In this document: positions 58,747-63,029 of the stretch, piece after piece
How positions within the stretch are numbered: the first letter of the stretch is position 1
Layout of the letters: each line of letters starts with the position of its first letter
Sequence record: NC_054931.1
Reading direction: 5' to 3' (one strand)
Source of the DNA: Escherichia phage T2
Length of the DNA stretch: 64,000 nucleotides
Notes under the pieces: generated by a model
Database searches by the model: none
Told to the model about the DNA's origin: nothing
What the model saw: the letters and a program-made list of their open reading frames with translations, nothing else
Program-made: the position numbers and the translations under genes

Positions 58747-60071
58747 TTGATTTCCTCTAAATCTTTGGTGTATTCGGTAACTACATCAGTAGTTTTCCAA
58801 TATTCGTTTTCTTCTTTTTTAGCTTTAGCTTCTTCAGCAAGTTTCTTCGCTTCATCGGAAGTCATATGAAAAATATTCATTCCAACTAGTTTATCAACAT
58901 AAGAAGAATACATATCGATTTTCGAAAGTTCTTCGGTCAGTTCTTTACGAGTTTTACCCTGTACAACAATTTCACCTGAAATTACTTTCTTAATGAAATG
59001 TGCTTTGGCAAAGGCTAAACGAAAAGCTGACTCAGTTTCTTTAATTTTGTTATCAATTCGTTTTTGGACATAAGTTTTACGAACTTCAACAAAGTCTTTA
59101 ATTAAATCAACTACGTTATCGTAAACTTGCAGCTTTCCTTTCTCATTAATAACCGTAATATTCTGGGAACGACGTTCAATCAGTCCGAAGTCTTTCATAA
59201 TTTTTGCATGGCGTTCTTCTTCGTTATCGCTCAAAGAATATTCTTTACGGAATTTAACTTTGAATCCAAAACCATGCTCACCACAAGCATCATCCCATGT
59301 AATGAAGCCTTTATCTTCAAGTGGGTCTAAAATTTTACTCACGTAAGTTTCACGATCATACTTATACGGAATCTCAGTGATATGCATTTGAGTTCGTGAA
59401 GTAAACTTATATGTTCCGCGAATTTCATATTGACCATCAATCTCAACGACTTCACCACGAAATTCTGGGAATTCTACCTTCGGTTTAGTTACTTTCTTTC
59501 CTTGAAGAGCTTGCAGTACAGCTTTCTTGACAGAAGAAACACTATGAGGAAGAATGTAAGTTGCATAACCAGTTGCAATACCGGAAACGCCATTAAGAAG
59601 AACAGTAGGAATAATAGGCAAATAGAAAGCAGGCGGAATGTGTTCTTTATCTTGATGTACCGGAGCATATTCAGTATCTTTATATACGTTATAGAAATTT
59701 TTACTTACACGAGCAAAAATATAACGACTTGCCGCTGCTTTTTGAACGGTACGAGAACCGAAGTTTCCTTGACCATCTAACAGAGGAAAGTTATTATTCC
59801 AAGTGTTAGCCATCAAAGCTCCCGCATCTTGCGCAGAGTTTTCTCCATGGTGATATCCAAGGTCCGCTACACCACCTGCAATAGAAGCGAGTTTGTGAAA
59901 CTTATCTTTATTCCCTCGTGCCAAATCAAGAGCTCGAGCAATAACAAATCGTTGAACCGGCTTAAATCCATCAATCATATTTGGGATAGCACGATTTTCA
60001 ACCGTGTACATAGCATAAGCCAATGCTTCATTATCAATGATACTTTTTAAATCGCGATTATTCAGTTGCAT
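58743..60071 (-). CDS. 52: DNA topoisomerase II medium subunit gp52
   Basis: 442-aa ORF; size and sequence match T4 gp52. Confidence 0.93.
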   Translation of the reverse strand: MQLNNRDLKSIIDNEALAYAMYTVENRAIPNMIDGFKPVQRFVIARALDLARGNKDKFHKLASIAGGVADLGYHHGENSAQDAGALMANTWNNNFPLLDGQGNFGSRTVQKAAASRYIFARVSKNFYNVYKDTEYAPVHQDKEHIPPAFYLPIIPTVLLNGVSGIATGYATYILPHSVSSVKKAVLQALQGKKVTKPKVEFPEFRGEVVEIDGQYEIRGTYKFTSRTQMHITEIPYKYDRETYVSKILDPLEDKGFITWDDACGEHGFGFKVKFRKEYSLSDNEEERHAKIMKDFGLIERRSQNITVINEKGKLQVYDNVVDLIKDFVEVRKTYVQKRIDNKIKETESAFRLAFAKAHFIKKVISGEIVVQGKTRKELTEELSKIDMYSSYVDKLVGMNIFHMTSDEAKKLAEEAKAKKEENEYWKTTDVVTEYTKDLEEIK

Positions 60072-60075
60072 AAAT

Positions 60076-60216
60076 TTACCATACTAGTGAATGTAGTGCC
60101 ATAATAACATCAGAAATGAAAAGCACGACTTGAATTAATCCGAACATTATTCCGTAATATAACGCTATCAATAAAATAGCAAGGTCTAATGAATAGCCCA
60201 AGATTTTCTTAATCAT
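60076..60216 (-). CDS. small membrane protein
   Basis: 46-codon hydrophobic ORF MIKKILGYSLDLAILLIALYYG... ending 4 nt before gene 52. Confidence 0.4.
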   Translation of the reverse strand: MIKKILGYSLDLAILLIALYYGIMFGLIQVVLFISDVIMALHSLVW

Positions 60217-60364
60217 TAGATAACAACACAAATGTTAAATATGCACACATACCCTGGGCTAAAGCCTGCGAAAACACACTACTGGCATCGATACAGATAG
60301 TTAAAACACATGCTACTATCCAACAAATAAATTAAATAACTCCTAATAATTTTGCGATATTCAT
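60209..60364 (-). pseudogene. ac-like small membrane protein ORF with in-frame TAA at codon 11
   Basis: ATG 60364 with GGAGAA RBS, MNIAKLLGVI, TAA at 60332-60334, then 40 more open hydrophobic codons; 52 codons in total. Confidence 0.4.
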
Positions 60365-60378
60365 AGTGTTCTCCTCAA

Positions 60379-60462
60379 CTATTTTTTAAAACCTAAAATA
60401 CCAAAGTTTTTAAGATTGTTACGATAGAACTGCATCACATGTTCGTTATGGAAATTACTCAT
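60379..60462 (-). CDS. stp: Stp-like peptide (activator of host PrrC anticodon nuclease)
   Basis: 27-codon [30 protein letters not shown]; first 18 residues match T4 Stp as I recall it; ATG overlaps ndd stop. Confidence 0.65.
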
Positions 60463-60920
60463 TAATATGCCTGCAAAACGAATTTAAAATTATCAGCCAA
60501 CATACGGTTCATTTCTTCAAGTGTTTGATACTCAGAATGATGATTACGAGTAAACGCTAAAGCTAACTGTCCTTTTCCAAATCCCGTCGTCAGAGGTTTC
60601 ATCTTAGAAGCAGGCAGATAAAATACTGTGTATGGAACATTGTTATTTGCAATAGTACGTGCAAGCTGAGACCGACGTTGACGAATATGACTTAGAACTG
60701 CACTGAATCCTTGCTTAGAACGCTGATTACCTACATAAAATCGTGCAGACACGCATGGATTACTAAATGGACGACCATCTAATTTACTCACTAAAAAGTA
60801 AAATCCAGGTTTAGATAAAATATCTTTATGCGGAGTTCCTAAAAACCATTCACCACCCTTAATTGTACCAATAACAGTAGCGCCTGCATTATTCAGATCA
60901 GTAACAGTCATATATTTCAT
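60462..60920 (-). CDS. ndd: Ndd nucleoid disruption protein
   Basis: 152 codons from [18 protein letters not shown] with GAGGAAA RBS; recognised as T4 Ndd. Confidence 0.85.
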
Positions 60921-60980
60921 ATTAATTTCCTCTAAATTATTTTCTACTCCAAGGCCGCATGAATACACACGGCCATTAAA

Positions 60981-61196
60981 TTAATCGTCGCAGTCGACGC
61001 TCAATTCCCAAAACTCTTCAACAGTATAAGTTTCAGTATCATTTTCAATACAGAAACGTTCATTACTGTTATTTGCTAAAGTAGCGTTAACTGTCATTTT
61101 CTCGCTGGTGCTCTTAAGAGGTGAAATACGAATTAGCTGATCACCACTATCCAAGCAAAAAATTTCGCCAACTTTTACATCTTTAAAAATTTTCAT
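60981..61196 (-). CDS. hypothetical protein (ndd.1 position)
   Basis: 71-aa ORF with GAGGTG RBS. Confidence 0.5.
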   Translation of the reverse strand: MKIFKDVKVGEIFCLDSGDQLIRISPLKSTSEKMTVNATLANNSNERFCIENDTETYTVEEFWELSVDCDD

Positions 61197-61204
61197 AATT
61201 CACC

Positions 61205-61315
61205 TCAGGGAGTATAAAACCCAAATGCAGTTGTTGACCATCCCATCCAATACGGAAAATTTGCACCGATGTAAAACACGAGAATATAAAACCAAATACC
61301 CAGTAAATTCATCAT
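61205..61315 (-). CDS. micro-ORF, predicted small membrane protein
   Basis: 36 codons MMNLLGIWFYILVFYIGANFPYW... Confidence 0.3.
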   Translation of the reverse strand: MMNLLGIWFYILVFYIGANFPYWMGWSTTAFGFYTP

Positions 61316-61389
61316 TTTACACCATTCCAAATTGTTTCAACTACGGATTTTAAACCATTTTGATGAATATCCATTCCGACTACTTCCAT
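61312..61389 (-). CDS. micro-ORF
   Basis: 25 codons, stop overlaps next start (ATGA). Confidence 0.25.
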   Translation of the reverse strand: MEVVGMDIHQNGLKSVVETIWNGVK

Positions 61390-61410
61390 CAAATAGATTC
61401 CAACTACAAC

Positions 61411-61509
61411 TTAACCCAAGGCGAAAATCAGCATGAAAATGAATAAAGCCGGAAAAATATTATCGAAAAACCATTCCATAAATGTAAAAGCACTGCGTTT
61501 ACTCTTCAT
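61411..61509 (-). CDS. micro-ORF, predicted small membrane protein
   Basis: 32 codons MKSKRSAFTFMEWFFDNIFPALFIFMLIFALG with GAGGAAAA RBS. Confidence 0.3.
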   Translation of the reverse strand: MKSKRSAFTFMEWFFDNIFPALFIFMLIFALG

Positions 61510-61516
61510 ATTTTCC

Positions 61517-61630
61517 TCACATAAATCCAAAGTAAACGTTTAATACATCAATCATTAAAACGATTGGGAATATACTCAAAACTATTAGTATTATAACTAC
61601 ATTCCATATAGCTTTAACAATCTTTTTCAT
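61517..61630 (-). CDS. micro-ORF, predicted small membrane protein
   Basis: 37 codons MKKIVKAIWNVVIILIVLSIFPIVLMIDVL... with GGAGGAACAG RBS. Confidence 0.4.
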   Translation of the reverse strand: MKKIVKAIWNVVIILIVLSIFPIVLMIDVLNVYFGFM

Positions 61631-61658
61631 TTTCTGTTCCTCCGTAGTTGATAGAGTA

Positions 61659-61688
61659 ATAATACCACAGAGGAACAATCTTGTAAAC
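61659..61688 (-). promoter_or_regulatory. T4-type early promoter
   Basis: GTTTAC, 18-nt spacer, TATTAT on - strand. Confidence 0.5.
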
Positions 61689-61695
61689 AACTTTT

Positions 61696-61794
61696 TTAAA
61701 AATATTCGTAATAAATGTGAATACCAATCACTACTGCCGAAACTTGTGCAACCCACCACGCACAAGCAATAAGTACAGAATTAAAAATTTTCAT
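61696..61794 (-). CDS. micro-ORF, predicted small membrane protein
   Basis: 32 codons MKIFNSVLIACAWWVAQVSAVVIGIHIYYEYF. Confidence 0.3.
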   Translation of the reverse strand: MKIFNSVLIACAWWVAQVSAVVIGIHIYYEYF

Positions 61795-61877
61795 AATAAC
61801 CTCATCACAAAAGTAAATGTTAAACAAATTAATGGAATACTAATTAACCAAACAAAACACCACCATAATGAACTCAT
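61791..61877 (-). CDS. micro-ORF, predicted small membrane protein
   Basis: 28 codons MSSLWWCFVWLISIPLICLTFTFVMRLL, ATGA-coupled. Confidence 0.3.
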   Translation of the reverse strand: MSSLWWCFVWLISIPLICLTFTFVMRLL

Positions 61878-61905
61878 AGTTCAATCTCAACGATTTTCAT
61901 TTTAC

Positions 61906-62112
61906 TCAATAATCCGCTAAAAGATCGACGATTGCATCACGAAGACACTTATTCGCAATACGTTTAAGAGCAATTTCAGTTTCTGGAGCATTTTGAATAA
62001 TCATTGAATTCAATTCAGCCTCAGCAAACTGAAGTTCTTTAACTAATTCAGCTTTATATTTTCCTTGCCCTTTCTTAGCTTTTGCTCGTTTTAGTTCAGC
62101 TGTAGTAAACAT
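61906..62112 (-). CDS. hypothetical protein
   Basis: 68 codons from ATG 62112 (MFTTAELKRAKAKK...) with GGAGAA RBS. Confidence 0.5.
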   Translation of the reverse strand: MFTTAELKRAKAKKGQGKYKAELVKELQFAEAELNSMIIQNAPETEIALKRIANKCLRDAIVDLLADY

Positions 62113-62146
62113 TTTATTCTCCAAATCCGTATCAGTTGATAGTTGT

Positions 62147-62176
62147 ATATTACCACAGTCCTTGTGGTATGTAAAC
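62147..62176 (-). promoter_or_regulatory. T4-type early promoter
   Basis: GTTTAC, 18-nt spacer, TAATAT, ACAACTATCAAC downstream block. Confidence 0.5.
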
Positions 62177-62194
62177 CGTTTTGTGAAAAAATTT

Positions 62195-62752
62195 TTAAAT
62201 GGAAAGATACCATCCGTTGTAGTTGCTTTTTCTTACAACCTTACGAAGGTCTTCTCTATCACCGATGAATTTCGGAGTGTACTGGATGACACCTGGATGA
62301 ATTTCTTTAGTGTTGAATATAATTATACAGTCAGCGACTTGATGATTTAGAATGGGCCCTAGATTTATTCCAGAACCATATGGATACTCTCCGCTGCATC
62401 CGGTTGTTACCGAAATCCATCGTGAGTCAGTTTGATGTGTTTTGACTTCTACACGAAGCCCACAGTATTTTGGATGCGCCAATACATCCCATGCATATGT
62501 ATATGGGTCATTAACATCCTCTTGGCCTTTGTTAACATACCCGCTTAGCCAATCTGCTACAAAAAATTCTGCGTACACAGCGATACGACATCTTTCAATA
62601 ACTTCTGCTTTATCCTGGTTCGGGTTTTGTTTTAAAGAGTATCTTGCTGTATCAGCAATTTTGACCTTCATTTCACTAGTCAAGTCACTGTTCGATAGGG
62701 TAAATGTCGGAATCTGAAATAGTCTCTGTAAACCCGGATTCGTTTTCTGCAT
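62195..62752 (-). CDS. denB: endonuclease IV
   Basis: 185-aa ORF MQKTNPGLQRLFQIPTFTLSNSDL...; recognised as T4 DenB. Confidence 0.9.
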   Translation of the reverse strand: MQKTNPGLQRLFQIPTFTLSNSDLTSEMKVKIADTARYSLKQNPNQDKAEVIERCRIAVYAEFFVADWLSGYVNKGQEDVNDPYTYAWDVLAHPKYCGLRVEVKTHQTDSRWISVTTGCSGEYPYGSGINLGPILNHQVADCIIIFNTKEIHPGVIQYTPKFIGDREDLRKVVRKSNYNGWYLSI

Positions 62753-62815
62753 TGAACTTTCCTTTTACGTCGGAATCACTGATATTCATATAAATCATAA
62801 TTTCTCTTAAAACAA

Positions 62816-62831
62816 AAGGGCCGAAGCCCTT
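62816..62831. repeat. hairpin AAGGGC-CGAA-GCCCTT, copy 1
   Basis: 16-nt palindromic stem-loop identical to 63048-63063; T-rich flank on - strand. Confidence 0.6.
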
Positions 62832-62834
62832 ATT

Positions 62835-63029
62835 TTATTTGAATTGCGCAATTCTTTTCTCTAGACACTCAGCATAAGATTTCATTGAGATAAACTGCGA
62901 AAGTAGCAGTTCTTGCTCAACTGCACTAACCGTTAGAAACTTTGTGCTTTCTAAAAATTTACTCAGTGCATTAATTTTGAGCATTAATTGATCGTATTCT
63001 TCTTTTACTCGTGCTTGATAACCTAACAT
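62835..63029 (-). CDS. hypothetical protein (denB.1 position)
   Basis: 64-aa ORF with AAGGAAAA RBS, bracketed by two identical hairpins. Confidence 0.5.
   Translation of the reverse strand: MLGYQARVKEEYDQLMLKINALSKFLESTKFLTVSAVEQELLLSQFISMKSYAECLEKRIAQFK

What the first reader, a model, noticed from the sequence alone, without database searches (positions are those of the whole stretch)
61205..61877. Chain of translationally coupled hydrophobic micro-ORFs between ndd and denB
At least six ORFs of 25-37 codons lie head to tail on the - strand, several with ATGA stop/start overlaps and good RBSs, and most encode a single predicted TM helix (for example MKKIVKAIWNVVIILIVLSIFPIVLMIDVL). All are below the ORF-track cutoff. 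Small membrane proteins in T-even early regions are candidates for superinfection exclusion or modulation of host membrane proteins.
Basis: seen in the sequence. Interest (0 to 1): 0.4.

Follow-up and report, generated by a model that had tools for sequence, protein, structure and literature searches.

The report
Known T-even small membrane genes
The six tiny reading frames are real but already catalogued: they are phage T2's copies of T4 early genes ndd.6, ndd.5, ndd.4, ndd.3/ndd.2a and ndd.2, which look like small membrane proteins of unknown, non-essential function, and two of the six are the halves of one 65-codon gene that a stop codon has broken in T2.

Summary
The window is phage T2. 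The six minus-strand ORFs at 61205-61877 exist as described and exceed chance: shuffles give about 2 such ORFs, P(>=6)=0.0015.

They are not new. They are orthologues of T4 ndd.6, ndd.5, ndd.4, ndd.3/ndd.2a and ndd.2, and each matches a PHROG family. ORFs 4 and 5 together match Pfam DUF7248.

- **Coding:** substitutions across 24 Tequatrovirus sequences fall mostly on third codon positions (omega about 0.1-0.2). ndd.4 and ndd.6 have syntenic orthologues in Gaprivervirus and Dhakavirus phages; the DUF7248 gene has one in Gaprivervirus VR25.
- **One gene, not two:** ORFs 4 and 5 are a single 65-codon gene cut by an in-frame TAA. It is intact in 21 of 22 non-T2 relatives.
- **Other stocks:** other T2 stocks carry a different stop (G45*). 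The frameshift that splits the T4 reference gene occurs only in X75802-derived records.
- **Not one chain:** a conserved early-type promoter between ndd.5 and ndd.4 divides the ORFs into two blocks.
- **Published T4 data:** transcripts are early, no protein was detected by mass spectrometry, and knockdowns and transposon insertions are tolerated.

Function is unknown. Small inner-membrane accessory proteins is the best inference.

The parts
62147..62175 (-). Early-type promoter-like site P1 downstream of denB (TTTACA, 17 nt, TAATAT, with TG before the -10)
   Evidence: scan. Aligned with P2, sharing GTTTACA ... TGTGGTA-TAT ... CTATCAAC. Promoter function is inferred, not shown.
61906..62112 (-). 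68-aa ORF, first cistron after P1 (phrog_4535). Present in T2, RB6, UFV13 and PP01, replaced by a different 87-aa ORF in most relatives, absent from T4.
61874..61900 (-). 8-codon leader ORF MKIVEIEL whose stop overlaps the ndd.6 start (ATGA). In most relatives these 8 codons are the C-terminus of the upstream 87-aa ORF.
61791..61877 (-). O1 = ndd.6, 28 aa, one hydrophobic helix. It has a weak SD of its own and an ATGA overlap with the upstream ORF.
   Evidence: phrog_8851, E=3e-17. Annotated in T4. tblastn finds 592 phage records, about 100 of them at under 60% identity in other genera. Orthologues lie in the same position in Gaprivervirus and Dhakavirus. Variable sites by codon position 3/0/4, omega 0.15.
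61696..61794 (-). O2 = ndd.5, 32 aa, one hydrophobic helix, ATGA overlap with ndd.6.
   Evidence: phrog_5011, E=9e-26. 492 records, found only in close T4-like relatives at the threshold used; 488 are at least 90% identical. Variable sites 2/1/11, omega 0.10.
61659..61687 (-). Early-type promoter-like site P2 (TTTACA, 17 nt, TATTAT, with TG) between ndd.5 and ndd.4.
   Evidence: Best-scoring site (10 of 12). The -35 GTTTACA is invariant in 24 sequences. 84-91% similar to the P1-equivalent promoter in relatives. Function is inferred.
61517..61630 (-). O3 = ndd.4, 37 aa, N-terminal KK..K followed by a strong hydrophobic helix, GGAGG SD.
   Evidence: phrog_3098, E=3e-21. 595 records. 61-64% amino-acid identity in other genera, with omega 0.11-0.17 at saturated synonymous sites.
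61312..61509 (-). DUF7248 gene (T4 ndd.3/ndd.2a), a 65-codon frame interrupted in this T2 by TAA at 61413-61411 (Ser33 to stop).
   Evidence: The read-through translation scores 70.7 bits against PF23906 (cut-off 27) and E=1.7e-28 against phrog_2401. Intact 65-aa ORF in 21 of 22 non-T2 relatives. Variable sites 5/5/27, omega 0.12, and the 7 codons between O4 and O5 show 4 synonymous and 0 non-synonymous changes.
61411..61509 (-). O4 = N-terminal fragment of DUF7248 (32 aa, K/R-rich start plus about half of the hydrophobic helix).
   Evidence: Matches profile positions 3-25 of PF23906 at 17.7 bits, below the cut-off.
61312..61389 (-). O5 = C-terminal fragment of DUF7248 (25 aa, hydrophilic tail with the conserved motif NGLKSVVETIWNGVK). 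It has a weak SD, and its stop overlaps the ndd.2 start.
   Evidence: Matches PF23906 positions 37-57 at 36.8 bits. Annotated as Ndd.2a in a T2 record. Tail conserved in VR25. A permissive tblastn (E limit 10) matched 708 T4-like records, about 490 of them strong; most of the rest are at E>=0.3.
61205..61315 (-). O6 = ndd.2, 36 aa, aromatic-rich with no charged residue, ATGA overlap with the DUF7248 stop.
   Evidence: phrog_4135, E=9e-23. 517 records. Variable sites 8/3/14, omega 0.21.
60981..61196 (-). ndd.1, 71 aa, the next cistron, with SD GAGGTGA overlapping the ndd.2 stop.
   Evidence: Detected as an early protein in T4.

Best explanation
The span holds T2's copies of five known T-even early genes: ndd.6, ndd.5, ndd.4, the DUF7248 gene (called ndd.3 and ndd.2a in the T4 reference) and ndd.2.

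**Shown here**
- Each frame is conserved as a protein-coding frame across roughly 490-600 T4-like genomes and evolves under purifying selection.
- O4 and O5 are the two halves of the single 65-codon DUF7248 gene, cut by a nonsense codon in this T2. So T2 has four intact micro-genes plus one broken gene.

**Inferred from sequence**
- Two sigma-70-type early promoters drive two blocks: P1, then a 68-aa ORF, an 8-codon leader, ndd.6 and ndd.5; and P2, then ndd.4, DUF7248, ndd.2, ndd.1 and ndd.
- ndd.4, ndd.5, DUF7248 and ndd.2 start from their own SD sequences.
- ndd.6, and probably ndd.2, also depend on termination-reinitiation at ATGA overlaps.

**Inferred from composition**
- Each product is a single-pass inner-membrane peptide.
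- By the positive-inside rule, ndd.4, ndd.5 and DUF7248 are N-in/C-out. That would place the conserved 20-residue DUF7248 tail in the periplasm.

**Most likely role (inference only).** They are accessory proteins, made in the first minutes of infection, that bind and modulate host envelope proteins. They would be useful on some natural hosts and dispensable on laboratory strains.
For: **Identity**
- 99.9% identity to T2, and synteny with T4 ndd.2 to ndd.6.
- PHROG hits at E=1e-17 to 1e-28 for every frame.
- DUF7248 at 70.7 bits for O4+O5 read through the stop.

**Coding**
- Third-position excess and omega of 0.10-0.21 in frame, against mostly about 0.5-3.5 (or undefined, with no synonymous changes) in the shifted frames.
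- Cross-genus orthologues of ndd.4 (omega 0.11-0.17), ndd.6 (about 0.5) and the DUF7248 tail (0.17).
- tblastn record counts of 492-595.

**Split gene**
- Intact in 21 of 22 non-T2 relatives.
- The 65-aa protein clusters hold 109 and 95 member sequences, against 1-2 for truncated forms.

**Expression signals**
- SD energies.
- Promoter scan and conservation.
- The overlap is preserved as TAATG where the first ATG of ndd.2 is lost.

**Membrane character**
- Hydrophobic windows of 2.2-3.4, and K/R-rich N-flanks in ndd.4 (+3) and DUF7248 (4 K/R).

**Literature on T4**
- Transcripts of ndd.2 to ndd.6 are classed early (PMC9697503 Table S2).
- All are 'Not Fit' in CRISPRi-ART (PMC11879866).
- Transposon insertions are tolerated at nearly every site (10.1101/2025.11.20.689424).
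- Deletions of region D (rIIB to gene 52) are viable (PMC12115623).
Against: - No protein product of ndd.2 to ndd.6 was detected by mass spectrometry in T4. This is expected for 28-65-residue hydrophobic peptides, but it means translation is not demonstrated.
- No ribosome-profiling data were found.
- Membrane insertion, topology and any binding partner are predictions only.
- ndd.2 has a weaker hydrophobic window (1.85 over 17 residues; 1.57 over 19) and no charges, so its topology cannot be inferred.
- Promoter activity of P2 was not verified experimentally here.
- No phenotype is known for any of these genes.
Confidence: 0.8

Rival explanations
1. One or more of these peptides are superinfection-exclusion or anti-defence factors. 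For example, the periplasm-facing tail of DUF7248 might block DNA entry by other phages, or a peptide might neutralise a membrane-bound defence effector.
For: - They are transcribed early in T4.
- They have predicted membrane location.
- They are dispensable on laboratory hosts, as accessory genes typically are.
- Gene content at this locus varies between genera.
- DUF7248 has been lost repeatedly in laboratory stocks.
- The tail motif resembles the 11-residue repeat of a tape measure protein; the aligned stretch I picked by eye is 11 of 15 identical (P0015).
Against: - There is no sequence similarity to Imm, Sp or any named exclusion or anti-defence family.
- HIDEN-SEQ reported no ndd.x gene as conditionally essential under RexAB, RnlAB, CBASS, DarTG1, DarTG2 or minimal medium.
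- The tape-measure resemblance rests on one short motif repeated in the target, which inflates the score. In annotated phages it appears only at E>=4, in phages of Gram-positive hosts.
Confidence: 0.15
2. The ORFs are chance open frames in AT-rich spacer DNA, kept only because the DNA serves another purpose such as promoters or RNA structure.
For: - ORFs of 20-40 codons are frequent on both strands of this region.
- The proteins have never been detected.
- The region is deletable.
Against: - Shuffle test: P=0.0015 for six ORFs, and 0 of 2000 shuffles for four hydrophobic ones.
- In-frame omega of 0.1-0.2 with third-position excess; shifted-frame values are mostly about 0.5-3.5 or undefined.
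- Orthologues retained at 43-64% amino-acid identity where synonymous sites are saturated.
- No Rfam match at E<=1.
Confidence: 0.03
3. O4 and O5 are two separate functional genes, as the T4 reference annotation (ndd.3 plus ndd.2a) and a T2 record that names O5 'Ndd.2a' imply.
For: - NC_000866 annotates ndd.3 (26 aa) and ndd.2a (40 aa) separately.
- A T2 record annotates the 25-aa O5.
- O5 keeps an ATG, and its stop overlaps the ndd.2 start.
Against: - The T4 ndd.3 frame arises from a 1-nt deletion found only in X75802, AF158101 and NC_000866.
- T4T and two further T4-derived genomes (OZ209057, OL964735) carry one 198-nt ORF.
- 21 of 22 relatives have a continuous 65-codon frame.
- Both pieces map to consecutive parts of one Pfam and one PHROG profile.
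- O5 has a near-background SD.
Confidence: 0.04
4. They are type I toxin-like membrane-damaging peptides (in the manner of Hok, TisB or Ibs) used for host shut-off.
For: Similar size and hydrophobicity, and early expression in T4.
Against: - No antisense RNA family or any Rfam hit.
- No matching family in Pfam or PHROGs.
- There are no toxicity data.
- Knockdown or insertion gives no fitness change in T4.
Confidence: 0.05

Closest known systems
Phage T4 genes ndd.2, ndd.2a, ndd.3, ndd.4, ndd.5 and ndd.6 (NC_000866, T4p270-T4p275)
   Same: Orthologous: same order between denB and ndd.1/ndd, 94.5% DNA identity over the span, near-identical peptides.
   Different: - T2 has a 68-aa ORF ahead of ndd.6 that T4 lacks.
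- T2 breaks the ndd.3/2a gene with TAA at codon 33, whereas the T4 reference breaks it with a 1-nt deletion in codon 3.
- T4 annotates ndd.4 as 42 aa from an upstream ATG that is ACG in T2 and, in the 24-sequence alignment, is ATG only in the T4 reference.
Pfam PF23906 (DUF7248) / phrog_2401 'periplasmic protein'
   Same: O4+O5 read through the stop covers profile positions 3-57 of 58 at 70.7 bits. O5 alone passes the cut-off.
   Different: In this T2 the frame is interrupted. O4 alone is below the cut-off. The family has no known function.
T4 Imm and Sp, and HK97 gp15 (small envelope proteins that exclude superinfecting phage)
   Same: Small, predicted membrane-associated, phage-encoded and non-essential. 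This is a resemblance of kind only, and the properties of those proteins are recalled from my own knowledge.
   Different: No sequence similarity was detected in Pfam or PHROGs. No exclusion phenotype is known.
Bacterial small single-pass membrane regulators (AcrZ, MgrB, MgtS, KdpF)
   Same: Under 50 residues, one transmembrane helix, and acting by binding larger membrane proteins. This is the proposed working analogy, from my own knowledge.
   Different: No homology, and no partner identified.
T4 Ac and gp52.1 (neighbouring small predicted membrane proteins of region D)
   Same: Same early, deletable region and the same size class.
   Different: Unrelated sequences. Ac has a known acridine phenotype; the ndd.x genes have none.

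Membership tests
T4 ndd.6 (phrog_8851) | Full-length match to the family profile, and position between the upstream ORF and ndd.5 | tested here: met
   E=3.2e-17 over 1-28 of 28. Synteny.
T4 ndd.5 (phrog_5011) | Full-length profile match | tested here: met
   E=9.2e-26 over 1-32 of 32.
T4 ndd.4 (phrog_3098) | Full-length profile match | tested here: met
   E=2.9e-21 over 1-37 of 37. Cross-genus orthologues.
T4 ndd.2 (phrog_4135) | Full-length profile match | tested here: met
   E=9e-23 over profile positions 6-41 of 41.
Pfam DUF7248 (PF23906) | Score at or above the gathering cut-off of 27 bits | tested here: met
   70.7 bits for O4+O5 read through the stop, and 36.8 bits for O5 alone. O4 alone scores 17.7 bits, below the cut-off.
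Pfam DUF7248 (PF23906) | One uninterrupted open reading frame of about 63-68 codons | tested here: not met
   TAA at 61413-61411 in the window and in AP018813. Intact in 21 of 22 relatives. In T2 it is a disrupted member of the family.
Translationally coupled operon | Stop/start overlaps or gaps of at most 10 nt on one strand, conserved in relatives | tested here: met
   ATGA at leader/ndd.6, ndd.6/ndd.5 and DUF7248/ndd.2, and gaps of 7 and 8 nt elsewhere. The overlap is kept as TAATG in RB68, JE01, IMGVR5 and IMGVR6. Actual reinitiation was not tested.
Translationally coupled operon | A single uninterrupted chain across all six ORFs | tested here: not met
   A 65-nt gap with promoter-like site P2 lies between ndd.5 and ndd.4. 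O4 to O5 is a nonsense break, not a gene junction.
Single-pass inner-membrane small proteins | One hydrophobic stretch of about 19 residues | tested here: met
   The best 19-residue Kyte-Doolittle mean is 2.2-3.1 for ndd.6, ndd.5, ndd.4 and DUF7248, and 1.57 for ndd.2. This is a hydropathy calculation only; no dedicated TM predictor was available.
Single-pass inner-membrane small proteins | Demonstrated membrane localisation and topology | not testable with these tools
   Needs fractionation or reporter fusions.
Superinfection exclusion proteins (Imm, Sp, HK97 gp15) | Sequence membership of a known exclusion family | tested here: not met
   No such family appeared among the Pfam or PHROG hits.
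Superinfection exclusion proteins (Imm, Sp, HK97 gp15) | Exclusion phenotype on expression | not testable with these tools
   An experiment is required.
Type I toxin-antitoxin peptides | Associated antisense RNA or a known RNA family | tested here: not met
   No Rfam match at E<=1 in 60000-63000.

The most novel reading that the evidence does not exclude
The DUF7248 gene is not just dispensable but is repeatedly selected against when T2 is grown in the laboratory.

- Three T2 stocks differ at only 11 positions over about 49 kb, yet 5 of the 11 fall in 140 nt of this one gene.
- Those five include two different nonsense codons (S33* and G45*) and a change that destroys the SD sequence.
- The unrelated phage ELT1 carries the same G45*.

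This would mean the protein, whose periplasm-facing tail is conserved across T4-like phages of E. coli and apparently Klebsiella and Serratia, is costly on laboratory hosts or is sensed by a host system. That would make it a tractable entry point to the function of this class of early micro-proteins.
Probability: 0.2. Interest if true: 0.55.

Novelty: already known. Interest (0 to 1): 0.25.

Why it matters
The finding itself re-discovers annotated T4-type genes, so it adds little as a discovery.

The follow-up gives three practical corrections for people who use T2 and T4 as models:
- ndd.3 and ndd.2a of the T4 reference are one 65-codon gene (DUF7248), split by a 1-nt deletion that occurs only in records derived from the original Sanger sequence.
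- T2 stocks carry different nonsense alleles of that gene, and also a nonsense codon in ac. So T2 is a natural mutant for two small region-D membrane proteins.
- The T2 record AP018813 annotates only one of the five genes.

The clustering of stock-to-stock differences in DUF7248 is a cheap, testable hint of selection on a micro-protein that has no known function.

Tried and rejected
- **Literature by gene name.** The search returned only neurodevelopmental-disorder papers. 'denB' plus 'ndd.2' found nothing. A search for T4 ribosome profiling found nothing relevant. The T4 genome review PMC150520 is not held.
- **IMG/VR.** A scan with Ndd gave only 5 loci, so relatives were fetched one at a time from the phage collection.
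- **Rfam.** No match at E<=1, so no RNA-element reading was pursued.
- **1.84-billion-protein search with DUF7248**. Most hits were very long repetitive or hydrophobic proteins with many matched stretches, which I judged compositional. The tape-measure hit P0015 was confirmed as a tape measure protein. The similarity is one 15-residue motif repeated in the target, and in annotated phages it occurs only at E>=4 in phages of Gram-positive hosts. I kept it only as a weak lead.
- **Lipoprotein reading of ndd.6.** Rejected by eye: the residue before each Cys is W or I, not G, A or S.
- **'Outer membrane protein' labels.** These labels on ndd.2, ndd.5 and ndd.6 in records are not supported by anything found here. 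Each peptide is a single hydrophobic helix with no signal-peptidase or lipobox motif.
- **Structure prediction.** Not run, because a model of a 28-65-residue helix would not discriminate between the hypotheses.
- **Promoter annotated in phage Lutter inside ndd.6**. By my own hand mapping and reading of the sequence, it lies at about window 61823-61793 and has a 13-nt spacer. It did not appear in the scan, and I did not adopt it.
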